A DNA stretch of 41,494 nt, from NCBI GenBank assembly GCA_963733375.1, contig CAVTDB010000011.1, positions 1-41,494 on the forward strand, read 5' to 3'. The notes beneath the pieces were generated by a model. That model was not told the origin of the DNA and made no database searches. It was given only the letters and a program-made list of their open reading frames with translations. Positions 300 through 24,888 of this stretch are shown here, piece after piece. The position numbers and the translations under genes are program-made. Numbering within the stretch: position 1 is the stretch's first letter; every line of letters begins with the position of its first letter. The DNA comes from Nitrospirota bacterium (GTDB taxonomy: Bacteria; Nitrospirota; JACRHJ01).

Positions 300-412
300 T
301 AAGACCGTACTTTTCTTTCGCGTGAAAGAAAAGTACCAAAAGAAAGCGGAACTTTTGTACGGCTTTTCTTTGTGTTACTTTCTTTTCACCCGAAAAGAAA
401 GTAACGGTTTTA
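300..412. repeat. Triplex-type intergenic repeat locus 1 (inward-facing pair)
   Basis: gtac-ttttctttc-gcgt-gaaagaaaa-gtacc-aaaagaaag ... cttttcttt-gtgttac-tttcttttc-accc-gaaaagaaa-gtaac; ends taagaccg/cggtttta, the right end includes the yidD stop. Confidence 0.95.
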
Positions 413-2047: not shown

Positions 2048-3425
2048 ATGCAGGAAGTAGTAAAGGATATCTGGTCGGAGGCACGGGAGCTTATATCGAA
2101 AGAGGTGAGCCGCCAGAACTTCGACACCTGGATACGCCCAGTGCGGCTCCAGTCCATAGACGGGACGGGGGTGACGTTAAGCGTCCCGAACCGGTTCTTT
2201 AAAGAATGGCTGCACGAGCATTATTTCGAGCTTCTGACCCGGGTACTGAAGGAAGTGCTGGAAAGGGACGAAATCGCCCTTTCTTTTCAGAATATCCAAA
2301 GGGGGCCAGGCGGCAGGGCACGGCCTGGAAGAGATGCCGCCTGCTCCGGCCCTTCCGGCACCCCAGGTCCCGGTTGCCGCAGAACCCCAGAAGATAAGGG
2401 TAAAAAACAACGGCTTCAACCCCAAATACACCTTCTGCAGTTTCGTGGTCGGCAAGTCGAACGAGTTCGCGCATGCCGCGGCCAAAGCCGTCGCGGAAAA
2501 CCCGGCCAGGGCTTATAACCCGCTCTTCGTTTACGGCGGCGTCGGACTGGGGAAGACCCACCTGCTCCAGGCCATCTGCGCGTACATAAAAGAGCACTCC
2601 CCAAAGACGCGGATAACCTTCTTGACTTCGGAGGAGTTCACAAACGAGCTTATCTCGTCCATCCACTACAACCGGATGACCGAGTTTCGGAACAAATACA
2701 GGAATACCGACCTCCTGGTTATAGACGACATACAGTTCATAGCGGGCAAGGAGCGCACCCAGGAGGAATTTTTCCATACGTTCAATACCCTGCACGAATA
2801 CGGCAAGCAGATAGTGATGTCCTCCGACCGCTTCCCCAAAGAGATGCCGGACATGGAGGAGCGCCTCCGGTCGCGTTTTGAATGGGGGCTCATAGCGGAC
2901 ATCCAGCCGCCGGACATGGAGACGAAGGCGGCCATCGTGGCGAAGAAGGCGGAGCAGGAAGGCATAACCGTCCCGGAAGACGTGGCAATGTTTTTGGCCA
3001 ACAACATAAAATCCAACGTCCGGGAGCTGGAGGGCTCGCTGATACGCTTGGGGGCCTACGCATCGCTTACGGGCCGCCAGATAACCCTGGAGCTTGCCAG
3101 GACGGTGTTAAGGGACGTCATAACCGAAAAGGAGAGGGTAATCGGCCTGGACGAGATAATAAAACTCGTGGCCGACCACTTCCAGATAAAGATATCCGAG
3201 ATAAAGTCCAAGAAACGGACCCGGAACCTGGTGCACCCCCGGCAGGTGGCGATGTATTTATGCAGGACGGTCGCCGGCAGCTCTCTTCCGGAGGTCGGGA
3301 AGGCGTTCGGCGGGAAAGACCATACCACGGTCCTGCACGCATGCCGGCAGGTGGACGGGAAGCGTTCAAGCGATATCAAGTTCGACGCAGAGGTAGAGTC
3401 CCTGGCAAAGGCGGTAAAGGGATAA
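2048..3425 (+). CDS. dnaA: Chromosomal replication initiator DnaA (frameshift near 2290-2335)
   Basis: Domain I (FDTWIRP, VPNRFFKEW) in ORF 2048; AAA+ Walker A GGVGLGKTH, IDDIQF and domain IV GGKDHTTV in ORF 2334-3425. Confidence 0.97.
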
Positions 3426-3432
3426 ATCTGAT

Positions 3433-4474
3433 ATGACCGACGAGATAGCAGGTAAATATTCGGACATTATTTTTTATTCATCGCCAGAGGGCGACACCCG
3501 CGTCGAGGTGCTTTTTGGCGATGAAACGTTCTGGTTGAGTCAAAAACGGATGGCGGAATTATTTGGCGTGGATGTTCGTACAATAAATGAGCATCTAAAA
3601 AATATATTTAATACCAACGAGTTGGATGATAATTCAGTTATCCGGAAAATCCGGATAACTGCCGAAGATGGAAAAAATTATCTAACAAATTTTTATAATT
3701 TGGATGCAATTATCGCCGTTGGTTACCGGGTAAACAGCTACCAAGCAACTCAGTTCCGTATGTGGGCCACGAAGACACTTAAAGAATTTATTGTAAAAGG
3801 TTTTGTCCTCGACGATGAAAGGCTCAAGCAAGGGAAAAAATTCGGTCGGGATTACTTCGATGAGCTTCTTGAGCGTATTCGAGAGATACGGGCGAGCGAG
3901 AGGCGGTTTTACCAGAAGATAACGGATATTTATCAGCAGTGCAGTATCGACTATGATAAAAATGCTGAAATAACCAAAAATTTCTTTGCAATTATTCAGA
4001 ATAAGCTGCATTGGGCAGTAATGGGAAAAACTGCCGCGGAAATAATTGCTGGCAGGGCTCACGCGGATAAGCCGAAAATGGGACTAATGACCTGGAAAAA
4101 CAGCCCGGACGGGAAAATAATGAAGTCCGACGTTCTCGGTAGCTAAGAATTATATGACCGAAAAAGAAATAAAGGGGCTTGAAAGACTGGTATCGAGGTA
4201 CCTTGATTATGCCGAGGATCTGGCTGCAAGGATGATACCTATGACGATGAAGGATTGTGTTGAAAAACTCGATGGTTTCCTAAAATTTAACGAATATAAA
4301 ATATTGGATAACCCGGGCAAGGTACGCCATGAAGCGGCAAAAAGACTAGCTGAATCCCATTATGAGAAATTCAGGGTGATACAGGACAGGGAGTTTGAGA
4401 GCGATTTTGATAAGGAAGTGAAAAAGATTTCCCTTCCTCGTAGAAAAACCAATCATAAAAGAGAAGACGCATAA
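3433..4474 (+). CDS. Virulence RhuM family protein (frameshift near 4140)
   Basis: ETFWLSQKRMAELFGV, YNLDAIIAVGYRVNS, GFVLDDERLK, ERIREIRASERRFYQK; the family motif VAKNY bridges ORFs 3433-4146 and 4154-4474; AT-richer than its neighbours. Confidence 0.85.
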
Positions 4475-4507: not shown

Positions 4508-5617
4508 ATGAAATTCCAGATCAAGAAGGAAGAGTTCCTCAAGGGGTTGTCAAGGGTCCAGTCCGTGGCGGACAGGCGGAACACCATGCCCATCCTCTCT
4601 AACGCCCTGATAGAGACCGTGGACGGGGGTATTGCCATAACCGCTACCGATTTAGAGATCGGCCTGAGGGGCGTTTACCAGGCGGAGGTGACGGAGCCGG
4701 GCGGGGTGACACTGTCGGCCAGGAAGCTCTTCGAGATCGTGAGGGAGCTGCCCGAGGAAGACGTATCGGTGGAGAGCGCGGAGAACAACTGGGCCACCAT
4801 AAGGAGCGGGAAGGCGACCTTCAAGTTCACGGGGCTGGCCAAGGAGGAGTTCCCCACCCTGCCCGAGATGGAGGGGGCGCAGTTCGTGCCGGTGGACTCT
4901 GTCCTGATGCACGAGCTTATCAGAAAGACCATCTTCGCCGCGGGCGACAACGATACAAGATACGTGCTGAACGGCATTTATATGGTCCTGTCAAGCGTCG
5001 ATGGCGGCTCCCAGATAGAGATGGTGGGCACGGACGGCCACCGCCTTGCCGTGCTGAAGCGGACAATCGCAACCAAGGCCGAGCCGGGCACGGCTATAAT
5101 ACCCAAGAAATCGGCAAACGAGCTGAAAAAACTTCTGGACGAGGGCGAGGGCGAGCTGATGATGGCGCTCTCCAAGAACCACATCGTCTTCCGCCTCGGC
5201 TCGCTTTATATGGTAACGCGCCTAATCGAGGGGAACTACCCCAACTACGAGCAGGTTATCCCCACCACGAACGACAAGACGGTCTTCGTGGAAAAGGTCC
5301 TTCTCTCCGCCGCATTGAAGCGCGTCTCCCTTCTCTCCCGGGAACGGACGAACGCGGTGAAGTTCACCTTCTCGAAGGAGAAGGCGGCGCTTTCCTCCCA
5401 GAACCCGGAGATGGGCGAGGCCAAAGAGGACATCCCGGTCGAGTACGGCGGCTCCGAGATAGAGGTCGGCTTCAACGCCAAGTACCTGCTTGACGCCCTC
5501 TCCGTGATGGACCAGGATAAGGTCAGCCTGCTTCTGAAGGACAACCTCTCGCCCTGCATCATCAGCCAGGCCGGGGGCGAGGCGTACAAGTGCGTCGTCA
5601 TGCCGATGCGGGTATAA
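4508..5617 (+). CDS. dnaN: DNA polymerase III beta sliding clamp
   Basis: ATDLEIG, GTDGHRL, RLIEGNYPNY, C-terminal VVMPMR. Confidence 0.97.
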   Translation: MKFQIKKEEFLKGLSRVQSVADRRNTMPILSNALIETVDGGIAITATDLEIGLRGVYQAEVTEPGGVTLSARKLFEIVRELPEEDVSVESAENNWATIRSGKATFKFTGLAKEEFPTLPEMEGAQFVPVDSVLMHELIRKTIFAAGDNDTRYVLNGIYMVLSSVDGGSQIEMVGTDGHRLAVLKRTIATKAEPGTAIIPKKSANELKKLLDEGEGELMMALSKNHIVFRLGSLYMVTRLIEGNYPNYEQVIPTTNDKTVFVEKVLLSAALKRVSLLSRERTNAVKFTFSKEKAALSSQNPEMGEAKEDIPVEYGGSEIEVGFNAKYLLDALSVMDQDKVSLLLKDNLSPCIISQAGGEAYKCVVMPMRV

Positions 5618-5623
5618 AAATTC

Positions 5624-5775
5624 CTACTTTCTTTTCGGGTGAAAAGCGGCTAGGGCGCCGCGCATTTGTCCATCTTCGGAGCCTTCGCCTCCGTAAGGTG
5701 GAAGTAGCAAAGAAAAGCCGGACTTAAAAACACCGTTTTCTTTTGCTACTTTTCTTTTTCGTAAAAGAAAAGTAG
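5624..5775. repeat. Triplex-type repeat locus 2 (pair; first unit interrupted by a ~54-bp insert at 5647-5700)
   Basis: ctac-tttcttttc-gggt-gaaaag[insert]aagtagc-aaagaaaag-ccgg ... ttttctttt-gctac-ttttctttt-tcgt-aaaagaaaa-gtag. Confidence 0.9.
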
Positions 5776-5782
5776 AGGTTTG

Positions 5783-6969
5783 ATGTTCTTTAAGAATTTG
5801 ATTCTGCGCAACATGCGCAACTATAAAAATCTGGAGCTTGCGCTCACCCCGGGCCTGAACCTCTTTTACGGGGGAAACGCCCAGGGGAAGACGAACCTGC
5901 TTGAGGCCGCGTGCCTGCTGGCGTCGCTTCGGTCGTTTCGGGGAGTGAAGCCTTTCGCCGCAGTCTCCTGGGATTCCCAGGAAGGCCTGATCCAGGGGGA
6001 GGCGGCGCGCCATAACGGGCGTCTGCGGAAATTAAAGCTTTCCATCGGACGGGGCGAGCGGAAGGTGCTCCTGGACGGGAAGCGTCCGGAGTCCGCGGCG
6101 GACTACCTCCTGAGCGTGCGGGTAATAAGTTTTTCGCCGGAGGATTTATTCCTCGTGAAGGAATATCCCTCCTCCAGGCGCCGGTTCCTGGACCGCTCGG
6201 TATTTCACCTGCGGCCCTCCTACCTTGGGCTGGTCAATCAATGCCGGGCGGCGTCAAAGCAGCTCAACTCGGCGCTGAAGGCCGGCGCCGGGTACAGTGG
6301 CGGCAGGTGCGGGGGTAGACGGGGCGCAGGACGCGGGGGGACGGAGCGAACTGGCCGGGGACGGCGGGAGATATCGGGCATATAAAGAGCTGGGAGGAAG
6401 CGGCCGCGCCTTTGTTCGCGGAAGTGACCTTGCGGCGGCGGGAGCGGGCGGAGATACTGGCTCCGCTGGCCGGGGAGATATTTGAAAAGACCCTGGGCGG
6501 AGGCCGTCTGGAACTTAAATACAAGTCGGCGGCGAAGGGGTCGGATTTAAAGGAACTGACCGGAGAGTATTTAAAACTTTTCGAAAAAAGGCGTCCGGAG
6601 GGTATGAAGCGGCGGCACAGCCTGGTCGGGCCTCATACGGACGACCTGGAAGTCCTGTTAGACGGGCGGGAGATGAAGCTCACGGCTTCGCGGGGCCAGG
6701 GTAAGCTCGCGCTTTTGTCCCTGGTCCTGGCGGACGCGGTGCAGTATAGAGAGCGCGCGGGCGAATACCCGGTGCTCCTTTTTGACGATGCGGGCTCGGA
6801 GCTGGACGACAAGAGGCTTGGGGCGCTCATGGATATGGTATCGACGATGGGCCAGGTCCTGATTACGTCCACCGACGGCGGCCTTCTCGGAAACAGAGAG
6901 GGCGCGAAGTTCAAAGTCGAGGCGGACCAGGACGGGGCAAGAGTAAGTCGTTACTTTCTTTTCGGGTGA
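5783..6969 (+). CDS. recF: DNA replication/repair protein RecF (frameshift in 6290-6390)
   Basis: Walker A GGNAQGKTNLLEA, RRRFLD, VGPHTDDL, ASRGQ, Walker B LLFDDAGSELD; between dnaN and gyrB. Confidence 0.92.
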
Positions 6970-7058
6970 AAAGAAAGTAACACAAAGAAAAGCCGGGGTT
7001 TAAACCCCCCGCTTTCTTTTGGTTCTTTTCTTTCCCGCGAAAGAAAAGAACGGTCTTA
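6944..7058. repeat. Triplex-type repeat locus 3 (pair)
   Basis: gttac-tttcttttc-gggt-gaaaagaaa-gtaacac-aaagaaaag-ccgg, spacer ggtttaaacc, ctttctttt-ggttc-ttttctttc-ccgc-gaaagaaaa-gaacggtctta. Confidence 0.95.
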
Positions 7059-7088
7059 CGAATTTGATTTTCAAGGAGAGATAAATAA

Positions 7089-12884: not shown

Positions 12885-13001
12885 TGAAGTCGTTACTTTT
12901 TTTTCGGGTGAAAAAAAAGTAACACAAAAGAAAAGCCGGACATAAAAAACCAGTTTAAAAGTTTTTGGTGTTACCTTTTTACAAAAAAGGTAACGGTTTT
13001 A
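12885..13001. repeat. Triplex-type repeat locus 4 (pair)
   Basis: gttac-ttttttttc-gggt-gaaaaaaaa-gtaacac-aaaagaaaag-ccgg ... ttttt-ggtgttacc-ttttt-aca-aaaaa-ggtaacggtttta. Confidence 0.92.
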
Positions 13002-15911: not shown

Positions 15912-16045
15912 AGACCGTTACTTTTCTTTCGGGTGAAAAGATTCATCTGTCCAGAGCGATAGCGAAGACAGAAAGAAAAGTAACGCAAAAGAAAGCCGGA
16001 CAGTTTAACCGTTTTTGGCTCCACCTTTTTCCGTAAAAAGGTGGA
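15909..16045. repeat. Triplex-type repeat locus 5 (pair; first unit carries a 32-bp insert at 15939-15970)
   Basis: taaagaccgttac-ttttctttc-gggt-gaaa[agattcatctgtccagagcgatagcgaagaca]gaaagaaaa-gtaacgc-aaaagaaag-ccgg ... ttttt-ggctccacc-ttttt-ccgt-aaaaa-ggtgga. Confidence 0.92.
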
Positions 16046-16063
16046 AAGGGTTTCAGAGGTGTT

Positions 16064-17314
16064 ATGCAGTCTATAGTAATAGAAGGCGGCAAGCGTTTAA
16101 GCGGCGAAGTTAAAATAAGCGGCGCGAAGAACTCCGCGCTCCCCATACTCTGCGCGACACTGCTCGCGCCGGGCGAGCACGTCATATCCAACGTGCCGGT
16201 ACTCCGGGACGTTACCACGATGGGTAAGCTCCTCGAGAACCTCGGGGCGAAGGTCGAACACGCCGACGGCGTCTTCCATCTGAACACCCGGAACCTGACA
16301 AACGACGAGGCGCCGTACGACCTGGTGAAGACCATGCGGGCGTCCGTCCTCGTGCTTGGGCCGCTGGTGGCAAGGCAGGGCAAGGCGAAGGTATCCCTAC
16401 CCGGCGGATGCGCGATAGGCGCCCGTCCGATAAACCTGCACCTGGCCGGCCTCCGCGAGATGGGGGCGGAGGTGGAGATAGAACACGGTTACGTGGTGGC
16501 CAGGGCCAAGCGCCTCAAAGGCGCCAGGATTTATCTGGATACCCCGACCGTGACCGGCACTGAAAACCTGATGATGGCCGCGACGCTTGCCGACGGCAAG
16601 ACGGTGCTGGAGAACGCGGCATGCGAGCCGGAAGTCACCGACCTGGCCGCCTGCCTTACGTCCATGGGCGCGAAGATAAGGGGCGCGGGCACGGACAGGA
16701 TTGAGATCGAAGGGGTGGAGGGGCTTTCGCCCGCGAAGTATTCCGTCATGCCGGACCGAATCGAGACCGGGACGTATCTCGCCGCCGGAGCTATAACCGG
16801 GGGAGAGGTGAAGTTAACGGGCTGTGCGCCCGCGCACTCGGCTGCCTTGCTCACGAAGCTTAGAGAGTGCGGCCTGGAAATCGAGAGCGGCGATGACTGG
16901 ATAAGGCTAAGGAATAACGGCAGGCCGCGCGCCGTGGACATAAAGACCCTGCCGTACCCGGGTTTTCCGACGGACATGCAGGCGCAGTTCATGGCGCTCA
17001 TGTGCGTTGCGGACGGGCTTTCCGTGATAACGGAGACGGTGTTCGAGAACCGGTTCATGCACATCGCGGAGATCCGGAGGATGGGCGCGGACATAAAGGT
17101 GCAGGGGAACGCGGCCGTGGTGCAGGGGGTGAAGAACCTGTTCGGGGCGCCGGTGATGGCGACGGACCTGCGGGCCAGCGCGTCGCTGGTAGTCGCGGCC
17201 CTTGCGGCGAAAGGCAGCTCGGAAATCTCGCGCGTGTATCACCTGGACCGCGGGTACGAGAACATGGAGCAGAAGCTCCAGGGTATCGGGGCGCGCATTA
17301 AAAGGGTAGGATAA
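16064..17314 (+). CDS. murA: UDP-N-acetylglucosamine 1-carboxyvinyltransferase
   Basis: [20 protein letters not shown] (active Cys), [17 protein letters not shown]. Confidence 0.97.
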
Positions 17315-17416
17315 AGTCGTTACTTTTCTTTCGCGGTAAAAAAGGTAGCCCAAAGAATTTAAACGGGTCAGTTTAATTTTTGGGGCTTCCTTTTTACTAA
17401 AAAAAGTAGCGGTCTT
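17312..17416. repeat. Triplex-type repeat locus 6 (degenerate pair)
   Basis: taaagtcgttacttttctttcgcggtaaaaaaggtagcccaaagaa ... tttttggggcttcctttttactaaaaaaagtagcggtctt; same ends and layout with imperfect stems. Confidence 0.75.
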
Positions 17417-17426
17417 CGGGGCTCTG

Positions 17427-18715
17427 GTGAATTTTTTGAAGTACGGGCAGTCCGGGTTCGAGAAGTTCTTCGGGAAGATCGAAGGCCGCGCGGGAGAAGT
17501 GCCCGCGTCAGTCGAGAAGACTGTCCGGAAGATTATCAATGACGTCCGGAAATCCGGCGACGGCGCGCTCATATCATATACGGAGAAGTTCGACGGGGTA
17601 AAGCTCGTTCCAAAAAAAATCCGGGTAAGCGAAAAAGAGATAGAGAAGGCGTATGAGGACGTGCCGGAGGAGGACATTGACGCGCTCCGGCTTGCCGCCC
17701 GGCGTATTGCCGATTTCCACGAGCGGCAGAAGACGCAGTCATGGTTCGTGCAGGAAGATTCCGGCGCCATGCTCGGCCAGCGGGTCCTGCCTCTTGAATG
17801 CGTCGGGATATACGTGCCCGGCGGGAAGGCCTCTTACCCTTCGTCCGTATTGATGAACGCGGTCCCGGCGAAGGTCGCGGGCGTGCCGAAGGTGGTGATG
17901 TGCGTGCCCGCTCCGGGCGGGAAGCTTAGCTCCGCCGTGCTTGTCGCCGCGGACCTCGCGGGGGTGGACGAGATATACAAAGTCGGCGGGGCGCAGGCGG
18001 TCGCGGCGATGGCGTACGGGACAAAGACCATCCCCAGGGTCGATAAGATAGTCGGCCCCGGAAACATATACGTCGCCACGGCGAAGAGGTTAGTTTTCGG
18101 CGCGGTCGATATAGACATGGTCGCCGGGCCGTCGGAGATATTGGTGGTCGCGGACAAGACCGCGAACCCCGTTTTCGTCGCGGCCGATATGCTCTCTCAG
18201 GCGGAACACGACGAGATGGCGTCGGCCGTGCTGGTTACGGACTCGCCGGAGCTGGCGGACGCCGTGAAGCTGGAACTGGATACGCAGGTTAAAGAGCTTC
18301 CGCGCCGGAAGGTGGCGGAGAAGTCGCTTGCCGATTTCGGGGCGATAATCGTCGTGCGGGATTTGCTGGAGGCGGCGGAGATAGCTAACAGGATCGCGCC
18401 GGAGCACCTGGAGCTTTCCGTTGACAGGCCGATGGAGCTTCTGCCGAGACTAAAAAACGCGGGCGCGATATTCATGGGCCATTACACGCCGGAGGCCGTC
18501 GGAGATTATTGCGCGGGTCCGAACCACGTCCTTCCCACGGGCGGGACGGCCAGGTTTTTCTCGCCCGCTTTCCACGGACGATTTCGTGAAGAAGTCGAGC
18601 GTCCTGATGTATACGAAAGAGGCGCTGGAAGAACTTGCCCCCGCCGTGCTCCGGATAGCGAAGATGGAAGGGCTGGACGCGCACGCGCGCATGGTTGAGA
18701 AGAGACTGAAAGTAA
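17427..18715 (+). CDS. hisD: Histidinol dehydrogenase (frameshift near 18565; 3' end 18715 or 18765)
   Basis: GIYVPGG, DKIVGPGN, IDMVAGPSE, QAEHD, APEHLE, GPNHVLPT; after the shift LSTDDFVKKSS...EGLDAHA. Confidence 0.95.
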
Positions 18716-18818
18716 ACCGTACTTTTTTTTCGGGTGAAAGAGAAAGTAGCAAGAAAACGTATTAAAGTATTTAGCCCCGTTTTCTTTGGTCCTTTTCTTT
18801 TTCCAAAAGAAAGCCGGT
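18713..18818. repeat. Triplex-type repeat locus 7 (degenerate pair)
   Basis: taaaccgtacttttttttcgggtgaaagagaaagtagcaagaaaacg ... cgttttctttggtccttttctttttccaaaagaaagccgg. Confidence 0.8.
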
Positions 18819-18846
18819 AATATCTCTTGAAAGGAGTTTCACTCGA

Positions 18847-19718
18847 ATGGTCCTCCGCTTGGAATCCCGAAAGGGAGTTTGCAGGAGTCTACGCTTAAGA
18901 TTTTCCGGAAGGCCGGGTACAATATCACCGTCGGGAGCCGCTCGTATTATCCTTCCATAGACGACCCGGAGATAGAGTGCATGATGGTGCGCGCCCAGGA
19001 GATGCCGCGCTATGTCCAGGACGGGGTGCTCGACGCGGGTCTTACCGGTTACGACTGGATAATGGAGCAGGGCGCGAAGGTGGTGGAGGTCGCGGAGTTG
19101 AACTACGCGAAGGAGGGACTCCGTCCCGTGCGCTGGGTTATCGCGGTGCAGGAGGACTCGCCGATAAAGAAGATAAAAGACCTCGAGGGGAAGCGGATTT
19201 CAACCGAGCTTCTGGGATACACCAAGAAGTTCCTGAAGAAGCACGGCGTGACCGCGGACGTGGAGTTTTCCTGGGGCGCGACGGAGGTAAAACCGGGCGC
19301 GGGACTTGCCGACGCGATAGTGGACCTGACCGAGACGGGAAACTCCCTCCGGGCGAACAAGCTCCGTATAGTCGAGGTGATGCTTACCTCCACCACGCGC
19401 CTGATCGCGAATAAAGAGGCATGGAAAAACCCGGACATAAAGAAGAAGCTCGAAAATATGAACATCCTCCTGCAGGGCGCGATTGCGGCGGAGGAGAAGG
19501 TGGGCCTTAAAATGAACGCGCCTTGCAATAAGCTCGACAAGGTGACTTCAGTCCTGCCCGCCATGCACTCGCCCACCATCAGCCACCACGCGGACCCGGA
19601 CTGGGTAAGCCTGGAAGTAATCATCGACGAGAAGAAGGTGCGGGACCTTATCCCGGAGCTGAAGCGCGCGGGCGCGTCGGGCATAGTGGAATATCCGCTG
19701 AACAAGGTAATACCCTAA
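18847..19718 (+). CDS. hisG: ATP phosphoribosyltransferase, long form (frameshift in the first codons)
   Basis: MVLR(L)[11 protein letters not shown] from ATG 18847 with AAGGAG SD; [22 protein letters not shown]; C-terminal regulatory domain present. Confidence 0.95.
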
Positions 19719-19826
19719 ACCGTTCTTTTCTTTCGCGGGAAAGAAAAGAACCAAAAGAAAGCGGGACTTTAAAGTCCGGCTTTTCTTTGCTACTTTCTTT
19801 TCACCTGAAAAGAAAGTAGGAACTTA
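19716..19826. repeat. Triplex-type repeat locus 8 (pair)
   Basis: taaaccgttc-ttttctttc-gcgg-gaaagaaaa-gaacc-aaaagaaag-cgg, spacer ggactttaaagtcc, cttttcttt-gctac-tttcttttc-acct-gaaaagaaa-gtag. Confidence 0.95.
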
Positions 19827-19829
19827 AAT

Positions 19830-20888
19830 ATGGACATCAAGTCTTTAGTCAGAAAAGAAGTCGCGTCGCTTTCGGCGTATGAGCCGGAGGATTACTCCGG
19901 GGTGCGCATAAAGATAGACGCGATGGAGAACCCGTACCCGCTGCCCGAAGAGCTTCGGGAGGGCCTACTACATGCCCTGGCGGAAGTCTCCCTGAACCGT
20001 TATCCGGACCCCGAGGCGAAGCGGCTGAAAGGCGCGCTCGCAGGCTACCTGGGCGTGAATGCTGAGAGCCTCGTCCTGGGGAACGGCTCCGACGAGCTTA
20101 TCGCGATGATAACCCAGACATTCGGCGGCTCCCCCGGCTTAGTCGCATATCCCGTACCCACCTTCTCCATGTACGGCATCATCGCCCGCTCGATGGGGCA
20201 GGAGGTGATGGAGCTTCCCCTGACGGACGATTTTCAGATTGACTTCGACGGCTGGCTGAAGCTCTTTTCCGAGCGCCGTCCGAAGGTCATCTTCATCAGC
20301 TACCCGAACAACCCGACAGGTAATTTATTCGACCCCGACAAGATAAGGCGGCTGATAGAGGGCTGCTTTTCGATCGTCGTGGTGGACGAGGCATATTTCA
20401 GCTTTTCAGGCGAGAGTTTTATCGGTAAGATAAACGAGCTTCCGAACCTGGCGGTACTTCGCACACTCTCAAAAGTCGGCATGGCCGGGCTCCGGCTTGG
20501 CGTAATGGCGGCGGGCCGTGACATCGTGCGCGAGATGAACAAGGTCCGCCTGCCGTACAACATCAACTCCCTCTCCCAGGCGGCGGGGGAGTACCTGCTC
20601 ATGAACCGCGCGGCGGTAGATTTGCAGGTATCAAAAATTATCGCCGAGCGGGAGCGGCTTTTCTCGGCGCTGAATGAAATCGACGGCGTCACGGCCTGGC
20701 CGTCGAAAACGAATTTTATACTCTTCCGAGTCGCCGGAGCGTCACGGATACATAAAGAATTAAAGGCGCGCGGAATACTTGTGCGCAATATGGACGTGCC
20801 GGGTCCACTCAAGGACTGCCTGCGGGTGACAGTCGGGACTCCGGAAGAAAACGCGGAATTCTTAGTAAATATAAAAGAGATTTTATAG
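19830..20888 (+). CDS. hisC: Histidinol-phosphate aminotransferase
   Basis: NRYPDP, GNGSDE, PNNPTG, VDEAY, RTLSK..GLRLG. Confidence 0.96.
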   Translation: MDIKSLVRKEVASLSAYEPEDYSGVRIKIDAMENPYPLPEELREGLLHALAEVSLNRYPDPEAKRLKGALAGYLGVNAESLVLGNGSDELIAMITQTFGGSPGLVAYPVPTFSMYGIIARSMGQEVMELPLTDDFQIDFDGWLKLFSERRPKVIFISYPNNPTGNLFDPDKIRRLIEGCFSIVVVDEAYFSFSGESFIGKINELPNLAVLRTLSKVGMAGLRLGVMAAGRDIVREMNKVRLPYNINSLSQAAGEYLLMNRAAVDLQVSKIIAERERLFSALNEIDGVTAWPSKTNFILFRVAGASRIHKELKARGILVRNMDVPGPLKDCLRVTVGTPEENAEFLVNIKEIL

Positions 20889-20934
20889 TCCGGCTTTTCT
20901 TTGCTACTTTCTTTTCACCCGAAAAGAAAGTAGG
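20889..20934. repeat. Triplex-type repeat locus 9 (single unit, pyrimidine tail first)
   Basis: ccgg-cttttcttt-gctac-tttcttttc-accc-gaaaagaaa-gtag. Confidence 0.92.
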
Positions 20935-20953
20935 TGACCTTTAAGGAGGCTCT

Positions 20954-21542
20954 ATGGCCCGCAGGGCAAGGGTGGAGAGAAACACGACGGAGACGCAGAT
21001 AAAGCTCTCCCTCAGTCTTGATGGAACAGGTAAGTACAAGGTCGATAGCATCGGTCCCGTTCCTGGACCACATGCTCTCGCTCATGTCCCGGCACGGGCG
21101 CTTCGACCTGACCGTCCAGGCGAAGGGCGACACGCGCGTGGACTACCACCATACGGTGGAGGACGTGGGGATAGTCCTGGGCCAGGCGTTCAAGCAGGCA
21201 CTGGGCGACATGAAGGGCATCGGGCGCTACGGACTGGCGAAAGTGCCGATGGACGAGACGCTCGCGGAGGCGGTGGTGGACATCTCCGGCAGGCCGGGAC
21301 TCGTGTATAACGTGAAGCTCCCGAAGGGCAAGGTCGGGGATTTCGACGTGGAGCTGGCGTACGATTTCTTCAAGGCGCTCACGGACCATGCGGCGATTAC
21401 CCTGCACATAAACGTCCCTTACGGGATGAACCTGCACCATATTATCGAGGCTATTTTTAAGGCGTTCGGCAGGGCGATGGATAATGCCACGGCGCTCGAC
21501 GCGAAGACTAAGGGAATACCGTCAACAAAGGGCAAAATCTAG
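20954..21542 (+). CDS. hisB: Imidazoleglycerol-phosphate dehydratase (frameshift near 21045)
   Basis: [43 protein letters not shown]. Confidence 0.96.
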
Positions 21543-21647
21543 AAACCGTTACTTTCTTTTCGGGTGAAAAGAAAGTAACACCAAAGAAAAGCCGGGGGTT
21601 AAAACCGGTTTTCTTTGGTTACTTTCTTTTTTCCAAAAGAAAGTAAC
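21540..21647. repeat. Triplex-type repeat locus 10 (pair)
   Basis: tagaaaccgttac-tttcttttc-gggt-gaaaagaaa-gtaacacc-aaagaaaag-ccgg ... ccgg-ttttcttt-ggttac-tttctttt-ttcc-aaaagaaa-gtaac. Confidence 0.95.
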
Positions 21648-21666
21648 AAAGGGTTAAGGTTATAAC

Positions 21667-22293
21667 ATGATCGCTGTAATAGATTACGGAATGGGGAACC
21701 TCAGGAGCGTGCAGAAGGGGTTCGAGCGTGTCGGGCACGAGGCGGTGGTGACGTCCGACAAGGCAAAAATTCTGGACGCGGACAAAGTAGTCCTGCCGGG
21801 CGTCGGCGCGTTCGCGGACTGCATGAGGAACCTGGACCAGCTTGGGCTGGTCGATACGGTGAGGAAGGTGATCGACTCCGGCAGGCCGTTCATGGGGATA
21901 TGCCTTGGGCTCCAGCTGCTGTTCGAGGAGGGCGAGGAGTTCGGGATCCACGAAGGCCTGGGGGTGCTGAAGGGCAGGGTGGTGCGGTTCCCGGCGGAAG
22001 TGCCCGGCAATACGGAGCAGTTATATAAAATCCCGCACATGGGTTGGAACAGGATAAAAATAAAAAGGCTTCCCCCATACCTGAAGGATATCGCCGACGG
22101 CGGGTACTTCTATTTTGTCCATTCATATTACGTGGTGCCGCAGGATATGGGCATCGCGGCGACTACCACCGAATACGGCGTGGAGTTCGTATCCAGCGTC
22201 TGGAAAGACAATATATTCGCCACCCAGTTTCATCCGGAAAAGAGCCAGGAACTGGGGCTTAAGATACTGAAGGCATTCGGAGAGAGTAAATGA
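21667..22293 (+). CDS. hisH: Imidazole glycerol phosphate synthase glutaminase subunit
   Basis: DYGMGNL, PGVGAF, GICLGLQ, YFVHSY, QFHPEKS. Confidence 0.97.
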
Positions 22294-23015
22294 TAGTAAT
22301 ACCCGCGATAGATTTAAAGGAAGGCAAATGCGTCCGGCTCCTCCAGGGGCGGATGGAGGACGCGACGGTGTACTCGGAGGACCCGGGAGGTACAAGCGGC
22401 GCATTTTGAGTCGCTGGGCGCGGAGCTGATACACGTAGTCGACCTGGACGGCGCGTTCGCGGGCGAATCCAAAAACCTCTCATCCATAAAGAAAATTTTA
22501 TCCGCCGTTAAAGTCCCCATAGAGGTGGGCGGCGGCATCCGCAACATGGAAACGATCGACTCTCTCCTGGGGCTTGGCGTGAGCCGGGTGGTGCTGGGCA
22601 CGGCCGCGCTGGAGGTGCCGGGGCTTTTAATTCTGGCATGCAAGAAGTATCCGGGCAGGATAGTCGCCGGAATAGACGCAAAAGACGGCAAAGTGGCCGT
22701 GCGCGGCTGGGGCGAGGTGTCGAGCGTGACGGTGGACGAGCTGGCTAAGCGGATGGAGGACGCAGGCGTGCGGGCGATAATCTACACGGACATCAGCCGC
22801 GACGGGATGATGACCGGCCATAATATCGAGGCTACAAAGCGCCTTGCGGGGCAGGTATCGACGCCGATTATCGCGTCCGGCGGCGTCAAGGATATAAGCG
22901 ACATAAAAGCGTTGATGGAGATAGAGGCCCTCGGCGTGGAAGGCGTAATCACCGGCAAGGCGGTATATTCCGGAGAGCTGAACTTAAAGAAGCAATTCAG
23001 ATAACGAAGAGCTAA
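22290..23015 (+). CDS. hisA: ProFAR isomerase HisA (frameshifts near 22390 and 22990)
   Basis: [43 protein letters not shown]; corrected end EAIQITKS* at 23013-23015. Confidence 0.93.
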
Positions 23016-23152
23016 ACCGTTACTTTCTTTTCTGTCTTCGCTATCGCTCTGGACAGGTAAATCATCTCGGGTGAAAAGAAAGTAACACAAAGAAAAGCCG
23101 GGTTAAAAACCGTCCAAAAGTTTTTGGCGCTACCTTTTTACAAAAAGGTAGC
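23013..23152. repeat. Triplex-type repeat locus 11 (pair; first unit carries the locus-5 insert in reverse orientation at 23033-23068)
   Basis: taaaccgttac-tttcttttc[tgtcttcgctatcgctctggacaggtaaatcatctc]gggt-gaaaagaaa-gtaacac-aaagaaaag-ccgg ... ttttt-ggcgctacc-ttttt-ac-aaaaa-ggtagc. Confidence 0.92.
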
Positions 23153-23171
23153 AAAGGTTTAAGGGGTGTCG

Positions 23172-24307: not shown

Positions 24308-24789
24308 TGGAATTCCAATCCGTAAAAATAAACATCCCCGAGAACTGCAACGTAATCATAGGCCAGAGCCATTTCATCAAGACCGCCGAGGATTTATACG
24401 AGGCGATGGTGAACTCGGTGCCGGGGCGAAGTTCGGAGTCGCGTTCTCCGAGGCTTCCGGGCCTTGCCTGATAAGGGTCGAGGGCACGGACGAAGAAATG
24501 AAGGCGGCGGCGGTGGAAAATCTGAAGAACATAGCTTGCGGGCATTCGTTCTGCATCATGCTGAGGGACTGCTTTCCCGGTGAACGTCTTAAACGCCGTA
24601 AAGGACTGCCGCGAGGTCGCGAATATCTTCTGCGCGACGGCGAACCCGGTCGAGGTGATTGTCGCCCAGACGGAGCTTGGCAGAGGGATAATGGGCGTCA
24701 TCGACGGCTTCCCGCCGAAGGGCGTGGAAGGGCCGGAAGACGTGAAGAAGCGTAAAGATTTCTTGAGGATGATCGGATACAAGCTGTAA
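24307..24789 (+). CDS. Adenosine-specific kinase family protein (DUF355/PAE2307-like; two frameshifts)
   Basis: [61 protein letters not shown] assembled across frames. Confidence 0.85.
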
Positions 24790-24888
24790 AACCGTTACCT
24801 TTTTGGTAAAAAGGTAACGCCAAAAACTTTTAAACTGTCCCGCTTTCTTTTGGTTCTTTTCTTTCTCGCGAAAGAAAAGAACGGTTTT
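24787..24888. repeat. Triplex-type repeat locus 13 (pair)
   Basis: taaaaccgttacc-ttttt-ggt-aaaaa-ggtaac-gcc-aaaaa ... ctttctttt-ggttc-ttttctttc-tcgc-gaaagaaaa-gaacggtttt. Confidence 0.95.

What the first reader, a model, noticed from the sequence alone, without database searches (positions are those of the whole stretch)
15935..23068. The same ~32-bp hairpin mini-element is nested inside two repeat units, at mirror-equivalent sites and in opposite orientations
Seen: locus 5 has gggt-GAAA[agattcatctgtccagagcgatagcgaagaca]GAAA-gaaaa (15935-15974); locus 11 has TTTC[tgtcttcgctatcgctctggacaggtaaatca]TCTC-gggt (23029-23068). The 24-nt core ctgtccagagcgatagcgaagaca is an exact reverse complement between them, and the remaining 12 nt align without gaps at 8/12. 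One copy sits right of the GGGT loop and the other left of it, i.e. the same position on opposite arms of the palindrome. Each is flanked by a perfect or degenerate GAAA/TTTC duplication, and the insert has its own ctgtc...gacag stem. Inference: two independent, sequence- or structure-targeted insertions, so a second tiny element parasitises the first. From memory the cttcgctatcgctc core resembles widespread CTTCGCTnCGCTCAG REP-like palindromes (unverified).
Basis: partly seen in the sequence, partly recalled or inferred. Interest (0 to 1): 0.75.

Follow-up and report, generated by a model that had tools for sequence, protein, structure and literature searches.

The report
Tiny mobile repeat invading hairpin repeats
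A 36-base, gene-less DNA unit known only from one genus of uncultured Nitrospirota has copied itself into the loops of other hairpin repeats, into its own copies and in frame into genes, which makes it one of the smallest mobile DNAs seen; how it moves is still unknown.

Summary
The same 24-nt core sits at 15947-15970 (+) and 23033-23056 (-), each time between the 4-nt loop and one arm of an AT-rich host hairpin.

It belongs to a repeat family with a fixed 36-nt unit: a variable 12-nt head (GARAN-GNTTTAC) plus a nearly invariant 24-nt core. There are about 40 copies in this genome, about 30 and 11 in two sister species, and one in another genus. I found it nowhere else in 185,579 species genomes.

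Empty alleles in sister species show real, separate insertions: the prmC-murA hairpin, an RqcH/NFACT gene, a membrane-protein gene and a lipoprotein gene. Copies land just 5' of GA(AA). They favour loops of two unrelated hairpin repeat families and the element's own centre (nested copies), and they also form tandems.

The flanking GAAA is not a target-site duplication, because the left GARAN travels with the element. The REP-like resemblance is not supported.

I found no longer autonomous copy and no Y1-HUH, IS110, TnpB, reverse transcriptase or Cas1 gene in the three carrier genomes. Best reading: a non-autonomous, very small mobile element acting on single-stranded loops, with an unknown enzyme. 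The closest analogues are the cyanobacterial small dispersed repeats. Earlier notes of this scan describe similar tiny nested repeats in other phyla.

The parts
15935..15970 (+). 36-nt mini-element, copy at locus 5: 12-nt head GAAAAGATTCAT (15935-15946) plus 24-nt core (15947-15970)
   Evidence: nhmmer E 3.9e-12. Absent from the orthologous hairpin of G002.
15917..15984 (+). AT-rich host hairpin of the prmC-murA spacer: arms 15917-15930 and 15971-15984, loop GGGT 15931-15934. The insert lies between the loop and the 3' arm.
   Evidence: The composite folds at -14.9 kcal/mol, z -4.6.
15971..15974 (+). GAAA that follows the insert. It is the landing motif and the first bases of the host 3' arm, not part of the inserted unit.
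   Evidence: The empty allele in G002 reads TTTC-GAG-GAAAGAAAAGTAAC. Every copy listed but one, G000:C8 44412 (flank AAAGA), is followed by GA.
23033..23068 (-). 36-nt mini-element, copy at locus 11, on the minus strand: core 23033-23056, head GAGATGATTTAC at 23057-23068 as read on the minus strand
   Evidence: E 7.8e-14. The orthologous copy is present in G001 (L046).
23019..23086 (+). AT-rich host hairpin of the hisA-hisF spacer: arms 23019-23032 and 23073-23086, loop GGGT 23069-23072. The insert lies between the 5' arm and the loop on the + strand.
   Evidence: -11.6 kcal/mol, z -5.4.
15985..16044 (+). Rest of the composite host repeat at locus 5: A-rich tail GCAAAAGAAAGCCGG and a second small hairpin CCACCTTTTT..AAAAAGGTGG
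   Evidence: Repeat families D4, D8 and D12.
6950..6981 (+). Example of an unoccupied host hairpin in the same window, used as the empty reference form
   Evidence: Folds at -12.2 kcal/mol, z -8.2.

Best explanation
The two features are copies of a 36-nt, non-coding, non-autonomous mobile DNA element confined to one genus of Nitrospirota.

The unit has a 12-nt variable head (consensus GARAN-GNTTTAC) and a 24-nt almost invariant core, CTGTCCAGAGCG-NN-AGCGAAGACA with a free central dinucleotide.

It is inserted as a whole and in one orientation, immediately 5' of a GA, usually GAAA. On the other strand this reads as 3' of TTTC. No target bases are duplicated or lost.

It lands preferentially where that motif is exposed at a hairpin loop:
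- the loop/arm junction of the AT-rich host hairpin; because that hairpin is a palindrome, it offers the same site on both strands, which explains the mirror-image pair in this window;
- the loops of a second, GC-rich hairpin repeat;
- the centre of its own copies.

Being 36 nt long, it is tolerated in frame in proteins when the central dinucleotide does not make a stop codon.

Shown: the unit, its boundaries, the empty and filled alleles, the target bias, the nesting and the lack of a duplication.

Inferred: it moves through a single-stranded intermediate, cut and rejoined next to a short fixed motif, in the manner of IS200/IS605-type 'peel and paste' elements. The trans-acting enzyme would be one the profile searches did not recognise, or a host DNA-processing enzyme.

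My odds: mobile element with independent insertions about 0.85; single-strand, enzyme-mediated mechanism about 0.35.
For: Family and unit:
- The 24-mer occurs 13 times exactly and 28 times at up to 5 mismatches in the 2.39-Mb genome.
- nhmmer gives 40 hits at E <= 0.01, two of which are left halves of interrupted copies.
- All copies share the 36-nt register, or 35 nt with one central base missing.

Distribution:
- 4 of 41 relatives' genomes hold it: 27, 22, 9 and 1 matches.
- It occurs in 27 loci, all in 3 Nitrospirota MAGs, among 185,579 species genomes.
- It occurs in 13 metagenome contigs and in 0 viral contigs.

Empty versus filled orthologous sites:
- prmC-murA hairpin, empty in G002.
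- RqcH/NFACT gene: 36 nt in frame between the NFACT_N and NFACT-R_1 domains in G000, absent in G002, G001 and G006.
- Membrane-protein gene, just after the start codon, empty in G002.
- LEA_2 lipoprotein gene: empty in G002 and G009, 65 nt in G000, a 72-nt nested pair in G001.
- Second units of two tandem pairs, absent in G002.

No duplication:
- Left and right 5-mers match no better than shuffled pairings (positions 3-5: p 0.44 for 33 non-host copies).
- 16 of 24 hairpin-borne copies start GAGAT before a target GAAAG or GAAAA.
- All 4 nested inner copies start GAAAC before GATAG or GACAG.

Target bias:
- 12 of 36 G000 copies (9 by script, 3 more by eye) sit at the loop-side GAAA of about 143 host hairpins. 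That is 286 of 16,691 GAAAR sites, P 5e-13.
- In all 24 aligned hairpin-borne copies the insert abuts the first GAAA of the arm, never the second one 4 nt further in.
- The GC-rich hairpin family has only 17 short-loop members, yet at least 3 filled ones by strict pattern and about 7 by eye.

Independence from the host:
- Among 24 hairpin-borne copies the core differs at 0.003 per site, against 0.16-0.17 for the adjoining host arms.
- The 4-nt loops before the insert are as varied as in empty hairpins.
Against: - No enzyme was found. PF01797 (Y1 HUH), PF01548 (IS110), PF07282 (TnpB), PF00078 (reverse transcriptase), PF01867 (Cas1) and PF01609 gave no hit in G000, G001 or G002, which are 81, 97 and 94% complete.
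- The Y2 search rang in no control genome and says nothing.
- No longer copy enclosing a gene exists in the three genomes. Every left half has a right half within the unit or belongs to a nested pair.
- Element orientation shows no link to local GC skew: 12:9 against 7:8. The skew is noisy, so this is weak evidence.
- The element has only one weak 5-bp stem, whereas IS200/IS605 ends carry two good hairpins.
- Hairpin-borne copies are nearly all one lineage (GAGAT head, AT centre) and 22 of 24 classifiable ones have the same orientation relative to the host's tail. This could also come from copying among like repeats.
- Outside the recognised hairpin families, the landing point lies in a predicted hairpin loop in 11 of 24 rebuilt sites against 30% of 1,500 random GAA sites. 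This is only suggestive.
Confidence: 0.55

Rival explanations
1. Hitch-hiking or homology-assisted copying. The unit entered a host hairpin once or a few times. It then spread among the roughly 140 similar host hairpins by gene conversion or templated repair using the shared arms, or was amplified together with the host repeat. Under this reading most hairpin-borne copies, including perhaps the two in this window, are not independent insertions.
For: - Hairpin-borne copies are one lineage: head GAGAT-GATTTAC in most and centre AT in 23 of 24.
- 22 of 24 classifiable copies have the same orientation relative to the host's tail.
- All clean nested inner copies share another lineage, GAAAC head with AA or GA centre, as expected if copying follows flanking homology.
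- The host repeat offers 14-nt arms plus about 15-30 nt of further similarity.
Against: - The loop directly before the insert and both arms vary among filled copies as much as among empty ones, with compensating arm changes (0.16-0.17 differences per site), while the core is invariant at 0.003. A conversion tract would have to begin exactly at the insert.
- The two window copies have opposite orientations in the host and different heads.
- Insertions with empty alleles exist in three unrelated genes that offer no flanking homology.
Confidence: 0.2
2. No dedicated enzyme. Copies arise by replication template switching. A nascent strand stalls at a hairpin, anneals by the GA or GAAA microhomology to another copy, copies 36 nt and returns.
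For: - No transposase family was found in the carrier genomes.
- Junctions share 2-5 nt (GA to GAAAN) with the element's own start.
- Tandem pairs and deletion derivatives between direct repeats occur.
- Targets are hairpins, which stall forks (general knowledge).
- The empty allele of the membrane-protein site in G002 holds 9 nt identical to the head of the inserted copy.
Against: - The boundaries are the same to the base in all copies, although only 2 nt of homology are guaranteed.
- In nested and tandem cases the head stays GAAAC whatever the target (GATAG, GACAG, GAAGG, GAAAA).
- In all 24 aligned hairpin-borne copies the insert abuts the first of the two GAAA motifs of the arm, never the second.
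Confidence: 0.15
3. The 24-nt core is a functional site, for example for a DNA- or RNA-binding protein, kept by selection. Its spread is a by-product, so the element is a recruited regulatory module rather than selfish DNA.
For: - The core is about 50 times less variable than the neighbouring host arms.
- Many copies lie just after stop codons or in spacers of operons.
Against: - Copies sit in both orientations relative to transcription (the two window copies), inside coding frames and inside each other.
- There is no Rfam match in the window.
- Presence or absence differs between sister species at housekeeping loci.
Confidence: 0.07
4. A miniature DDE-type transposon moved by the Mu-type transposases of the genome, making 5-bp target duplications (GAAAN on both sides).
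For: - Weak rve hits occur 5 times in G000 and once each in G001 and G002. One 777-aa ORF carries a Mu-transposase C-terminal domain.
- The unit ends in ACA-3'.
- Five-base repeats are perfect at some sites, such as RqcH GAAAA/GAAAA and lipoprotein GAAAC/GAAAC.
Against: - Matching of the flanking 5-mers is at chance level.
- Most hairpin copies read GAGAT before the element and GAAAG after it.
- There are no terminal inverted repeats.
- nhmmer found no element-like sequence near the transposase genes.
Confidence: 0.03

Closest known systems
Small dispersed repeats (SDR) of heterocyst-forming cyanobacteria (Elhai et al. 2008, Genome Res 18:1484). The paper is not held. I saw only its citation in PMC3116915, PMC3733652 and PMC2884548; the details are recalled.
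   Same: Very small (tens of nt), gene-less dispersed repeats. They appear as insertions in otherwise conserved sequence, nest in one another and in other repeats, and have no known enzyme.
   Different: Different phylum and unrelated sequence. The unit is 36 nt rather than 21-27 nt (recalled). It is strongly asymmetric (variable head plus invariant core), has a fixed landing motif GA(AA) at loop/arm junctions, and has documented in-frame insertions in housekeeping genes.
IS200/IS605 single-strand transposition and gene-less derivatives (abstract of PMC6006769 seen; further details recalled)
   Same: Insertion in one orientation next to a short fixed motif, with no target duplication and a preference for single-stranded or hairpin DNA. 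This is what the element works like.
   Different: No Y1 transposase gene in the three carrier genomes. Only one weak stem instead of two subterminal hairpins. 36 nt is far below any described derivative. No strand bias was seen.
REP / REPIN elements with RAYT transposases (PMC3116915 abstract and one Discussion passage; PMC3733652 abstract and passages)
   Same: Short, abundant, mostly intergenic repeats of one lineage of bacteria, thought to be moved in trans.
   Different: Not a real palindrome, no GTAG or CGTC tag, no RAYT gene, not arranged as inverted pairs, and it also occurs inside genes. Here it is the guest inside REP-like hairpins, not the hairpin itself.
Insertion sequences that target palindromic repeats: IS1397 in BIME palindromic units, and Tobes and Pareja 2006 (titles seen in the reference list of PMC3116915); IS110-family bridge-RNA elements (search listing only)
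   Same: Landing in the loop region of another repeat's hairpin.
   Different: Those are full insertion sequences of a kilobase or more that encode their own enzyme. This unit is 36 nt with no gene.
Rickettsia palindromic elements (recalled; no paper read here)
   Same: Selfish repeats tolerated in frame inside protein-coding genes.
   Different: Those are about 100-150 nt palindromes in another phylum. This unit is 36 nt and adds 12 residues (e.g. RITCPERQRRQK in RqcH).

Membership tests
REP/REPIN-RAYT | 20-40 nt imperfect palindrome forming a stable stem-loop | tested here: not met
   Only a 5-bp stem, CTGTC/GACAG. Energies are -3.3 and -5.3 kcal/mol, z -2.3 and -2.9.
REP/REPIN-RAYT | Conserved unpaired GTAG or CGTC tag at one end (PMC3733652 abstract) | tested here: not met
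   The unit starts GARAN and ends GACA. Neither tag is at an end.
REP/REPIN-RAYT | RAYT (Y1 transposase, PF01797) gene in the genome | tested here: not met
   0 hits in G000, G001 and G002. Hits occur in 5 of 13 genomes searched, and controls rang in 6 of 14. These are MAGs, 81-97% complete.
MITE | Terminal inverted repeats of 15-30 bp and a size of 70-300 bp (PMC3733652 Background) | tested here: not met
   The unit is 36 nt and its ends are not inverted repeats.
MITE | Target-site duplication of fixed length | tested here: not met
   Flanking 5-mers match at chance level. The head GAAAC or GAGAT is independent of the target.
IS200/IS605-derived gene-less element | Insertion next to a fixed short motif, in one orientation, without duplication | tested here: met
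   Always directly 5' of GA, mostly GAAA. Empty alleles differ by exactly the unit.
IS200/IS605-derived gene-less element | Subterminal hairpins at both ends and a TnpA (Y1) gene in the same genome | tested here: not met
   One weak stem. No PF01797 hit. No TnpB hit.
IS200/IS605-derived gene-less element | Orientation bias relative to replication (lagging-strand template) | tested here: inconclusive
   12:9 against 7:8 relative to the sign of local GC skew. The skew is noisy in a 26-contig MAG.
Small dispersed repeats (SDR) | Very small dispersed repeats seen as insertions in conserved sequence and nested in each other (recalled definition) | tested here: met
   Empty and filled alleles. Nested copies.
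Small dispersed repeats (SDR) | Sequence families SDR1-8 of Nostocaceae, 21-27 nt (recalled) | not testable with these tools
   The paper and its sequences are not held. The element's core pattern occurs only in Nitrospirota MAGs, so sequence membership is unlikely.
CRISPR repeat | Regular array of repeats with unique spacers, plus cas1 | tested here: not met
   No repeat-spacer array in G000; the only periodic hit is a 99-nt coding repeat. Tandem units have no spacers. No Cas1 hit in G000-G002.

The most novel reading that the evidence does not exclude
The 12-nt head may act as an address. Lineages with different heads invade different targets. GAGAT-GATTTAC goes to AT-rich hairpins. GAAAC-GGTTTAC goes to the element's own centre and to the position right behind another copy. 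GAAAT heads go to the GC-rich hairpin. If so, this would be a protein-gene-less, head-guided single-strand insertion system served by an unrecognised or host enzyme. It would be a minimal programmable mobile DNA, and a route to the long-open question of how sub-40-nt repeats move.
Probability: 0.12. Interest if true: 0.85.

Novelty: new variant of a known kind. Interest (0 to 1): 0.6.

Why it matters
Mobile DNA below about 50 nt is barely documented, and its mechanism is unknown.

This family offers unusually clean material:
- a fixed 36-nt unit;
- exact boundaries fixed by empty alleles in sister species;
- a defined landing motif at hairpin loops;
- self-nesting;
- lineage-specific targets;
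- three near-complete carrier genomes that lack the usual transposases.

That narrows the search for the enzyme, or for an enzyme-free process.

It also shows that such units can add 12 residues to conserved proteins such as RqcH and to signal peptides. And it explains part of the layered repeat architecture that fills the spacers of these Nitrospirota genomes.

Tried and rejected
- Rfam scan of the window: no family.
- CRISPR origin: no array and no Cas1.
- Longer autonomous copy:
  - The cluster at the end of contig C25 encloses only a broken GalT-like gene.
  - Left-half-only hits in G001 and G002 proved to be degenerate whole copies.
- Five-base target duplication: looked convincing at four sites but is at chance level overall.
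- Twelve-base duplication: rejected by the same comparison.
- GC-skew orientation test: no link.
- Public reads:
  - The best runs hold at most 0.30 of the sampled words, so they are relatives rather than this strain.
  - Laid contigs gave joints 23032>23073 with 4 other letters. These may come from any empty host hairpin, so there is no verdict on population polymorphism.
- Y2 transposase search: the controls were silent, so it is uninformative.
- Conservation of the unit between strict orthologues: only 4 usable pairs (0 of 144 against 5 of 320 differences), too few to say anything.
- Structure preference outside the hairpin families: 11 of 24 against 30%, weak.
- Elhai 2008 could not be read.
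- Literature searches for the element's 12-mers and for related terms found nothing relevant.

Full report
**1. The observation**

- At locus 5 the AT-rich host hairpin is interrupted between loop and 3' arm. Its arms are 15917-15930 and 15971-15984 and its loop is GGGT.
- The interrupting sequence is GAAAAGATTCAT followed by the 24-mer CTGTCCAGAGCGATAGCGAAGACA (15935-15970).
- At locus 11 the reverse complement of the same 24-mer (23033-23056) and of GAGATGATTTAC (23057-23068) lies between the 5' arm (23019-23032) and the loop GGGT.
- The 24-mer occurs exactly twice in the window, once per strand. None of 100 shuffles gave any match.
- The host arm motif occurs 29 times against 1.09 expected.
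- The flanking genes are a PrmC methyltransferase and MurA at locus 5, and two His_biosynth genes (hisA, hisF) at locus 11.
- The insert's own stem is real but weak.

**2. A family, and its unit**

The window is a whole contig of a 2.39-Mb, 26-contig assembly.

- The 24-mer occurs 13 times exactly and 28 times at up to 5 mismatches.
- A profile built from these copies finds 40 hits at E <= 0.01. Two of them are left halves of copies split by a nested copy.
- Put in register, every copy has three parts:
  - a 12-nt head, GARAN then GNTTTAC, which varies;
  - a 24-nt core in which only the central dinucleotide varies (AT, AC, GC, GT, AA, GA, or one base missing);
  - a following GA, mostly GAAA.
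- The period in tandem copies is 36 nt, or 35 nt in the variants lacking one central base.

**3. Where it occurs**

- A pattern search of 41 genomes (this one and 40 relatives) finds it in 4. These are this genome (27 matches), two species of the same genus (22 and 9) and one genome of another genus of the family (1). The control pattern found nothing.
- A 20-base core pattern scanned over one genome for each of 185,579 species gives 27 loci. All lie in three MAGs titled Nitrospirota or Nitrospirae.
- JGI metagenome contigs give 13 more loci. Viral contigs give none.
- No paper in the library holds the core's 12-mers.
- The recalled likeness to widespread REP-like palindromes is therefore not supported.

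**4. The copies are insertions**

Orthologous sites in sister species give empty alleles.

- *prmC-murA.* G002 has the same host hairpin without the unit. G001 has only part of the host repeat. Two genomes of another genus have no repeat at all. This is a layered series.
- *hisA-hisF.* G001 has the unit at the same place and orientation. G006 has a host-like hairpin without it. G002 has a 1-kb low-GC insert instead. The two window copies therefore have different ages and different heads, so they are separate events.
- *RqcH/NFACT gene.*
  - In G000 the unit lies in frame between the NFACT_N and NFACT-R_1 domains and reads KRITCPERQRRQK.
  - G002, G001 and G006 lack it.
  - The G002 gene is frameshifted at an A-run at that spot. 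This is possibly an assembly error.
- *A 161-aa membrane or secreted protein.* The unit follows the fifth and sixth codons (MVHKMK|RLTCPERQRRQK). G002 lacks it.
- *A LEA_2 lipoprotein gene.* There are three states.
  - G002 and G009 are empty.
  - G001 has a 72-nt nested pair, in frame.
  - G000 has 65 nt: one whole unit plus a 29-nt partial one, out of frame.
  - My first reading of this site, single in G000 versus nested in G001, was too simple. I withdraw it in that form.
- *Two tandem pairs after small genes on contig C10.* Each is a single unit in G002.
- *Central dinucleotide.* Coding copies in the frame that would read TAG with an AT centre carry AC or GC instead.

**5. The flanking GAAA is not a duplication**

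- In 33 copies outside the AT-rich hairpins, the 5-mer before the GNTTTAC and the 5-mer after the core match no better than in shuffled pairings (positions 3-5: p 0.44).
- Sixteen of 24 hairpin-borne copies start GAGAT although the target reads GAAAG or GAAAA.
- All four clean nested inner copies start GAAAC before GATAG or GACAG.
- The added units of the tandem pairs start GAAAC before GAAGG or GAAAA.
- The head therefore belongs to the element. The event is the insertion of exactly 36 nt in front of a GA, with only that dinucleotide (up to GAAAN) ambiguous.

**6. Target choice**

- By a strict pattern the genome has 131 unoccupied and 9 occupied host hairpins. Three further occupied ones have degenerate arms (by eye).
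- Twelve of 36 copies therefore sit at 286 of the 16,691 GAAAR sites (P 5e-13).
- In all 24 aligned hairpin-borne copies the insert abuts the first GAAA of the arm, never the second one four bases further in.
- Because the host is a palindrome, this site exists on both strands. That is why the two window copies are mirror images.
- Twenty-two of 24 classifiable copies nevertheless have the same orientation relative to the host's A-rich tail. The loop before the unit is then the C-rich reading. Locus 5 belongs to the minority.
- A second, GC-rich hairpin family (arms ATTCCC..GGGAAT) has 17 short-loop members. At least 3 are filled by strict pattern and about 7 by eye.
- The element's own centre is hit repeatedly. 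There are three nested copies in G000, one in G001 and one in a metagenome contig. Two further copies look like nested pairs reduced by deletion between direct repeats; that last point is inference.
- Outside these families the landing point lies in a predicted hairpin loop in 11 of 24 rebuilt sites, against 30% of 1,500 random GAA sites. This is weak.

**7. Relation to the host repeat**

- The host hairpin occurs in 9 of 11 relatives of the same taxonomic family and in none of 13 genomes of other families.
- It is expanded in this genus: 91, 39 and 64 strict matches against 0-16 elsewhere.
- The mini-element is almost confined to the genus.
- Among 24 hairpin-borne copies the core differs at 0.003 per site, the head at 0.148 and the host arms at 0.16-0.17, with compensating changes in the arms.
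- The insert is thus either much younger than the diversity of its hosts or strongly constrained. The first option fits independent insertions. The uniform lineage and orientation keep homology-assisted copying alive as a rival.

**8. Mechanism**

- No longer copy with these ends exists in the three carrier genomes.
- Profile searches found no Y1 HUH transposase, IS110, TnpB, reverse transcriptase, Cas1 or DDE_Tnp_1 in them, although the controls rang.
- The Y2 search had silent controls.
- Mu-type transposase genes are present. The lack of inverted ends and of a duplication speaks against them.
- Four features resemble single-strand 'peel and paste' transposition most closely: a fixed unit, one orientation, landing next to a short motif without duplication, and a taste for loops.
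  - The abstract of PMC6006769 was seen. Further detail on that mechanism is recalled.
- Membership of that family fails on the enzyme and on the two-hairpin ends. The GC-skew test shows no strand bias.
- I therefore rate 'mobile 36-nt element, independent insertions' at about 0.85 and the single-strand enzymatic mechanism at about 0.35. Homology-assisted copying and template switching are the main rivals.

**9. Comparison and novelty**

- The nearest described kind is the small dispersed repeats of cyanobacteria. That paper is not held, so only citations were seen.
- Earlier unchecked notes of this scan report comparable tiny nested repeats in Poribacteria, a flavobacterium, Bacteroidia, cyanobacteria and giant viruses. 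A look-up by sequence found no look-alike of this element.
- This is a new sequence family in a new phylum. Its features of its own are a 36-nt asymmetric unit, the GA(AA) loop-junction target, lineage-specific targets and in-frame insertion in RqcH.
- I file it as a new variant of a known kind.

Noticed in passing
window 301-405, 5617-5776, 6944-7059, 12886-13001, 17313-17411, 18713-18813, 19716-19826, 20879-20934, 21542-21647, 24787-24888: The host is itself a composite intergenic repeat. It has an AT-rich 14-bp-arm hairpin, an A-rich tail (..AAAGAAAAGCCGG) and a second small hairpin, and it fills most spacers of this operon-dense contig. Arms vary with compensating changes. The family is found in most relatives of the taxonomic family and is expanded in this genus.
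   Followed up: partly
G000 contigs C2 37.1 and 43.3 kb, C3 274.7-275.9 kb, C25 142.1 and 150.5-151.9 kb: A second, GC-rich hairpin repeat (arms ATTCCC..GGGAAT and variants) has only 17 short-loop members. A large share of them carry the mini-element in the loop. Some loops (GAATGATTTAAT-like) resemble the element's head, which hints at where the head came from.
   Followed up: partly
L020 (G002:C6) about 317520-318577, orthologous to window 23005-23165: In sister species G002 the hisA-hisF spacer holds a low-GC insert of about 1 kb with an open reading frame, instead of the repeat. It was not identified.
   Followed up: no
G000 C3 192.6, 196.6 and 162.1 kb; C1 98.3 kb; C20 19.2 kb (L097): There are five weak integrase-core (rve) hits. 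One 777-aa ORF has a Mu-transposase C-terminal domain. G001 and G002 have one hit each. Their ends were not studied.
   Followed up: partly
L054 (G000:C26) 1012-1075: The LEA_2 lipoprotein gene of G000 carries 65 inserted bases, not a multiple of three. A new Shine-Dalgarno-like GGGAGG lies inside the partial copy, so the start of the gene has probably moved or the gene is decaying.
   Followed up: partly
L072/L091 (G002:C4) empty allele of the G000:C10 41013 site: The empty site in G002 contains 9 bases identical to the head and first stem bases of the copy inserted in G000. This is either chance through codon usage or a hint of homology-guided landing.
   Followed up: no
L052 (G000:C25) 2640-3640: A GalT-like (galactose-1-phosphate uridylyltransferase-like, by eye) gene on the minus strand is split over several frames. 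This is either a pseudogene or assembly errors.
   Followed up: no
G000 C3 5300-5650: A 99-nt periodic coding repeat, ankyrin-like by eye, was the only hit of a crude CRISPR-style scan.
   Followed up: no
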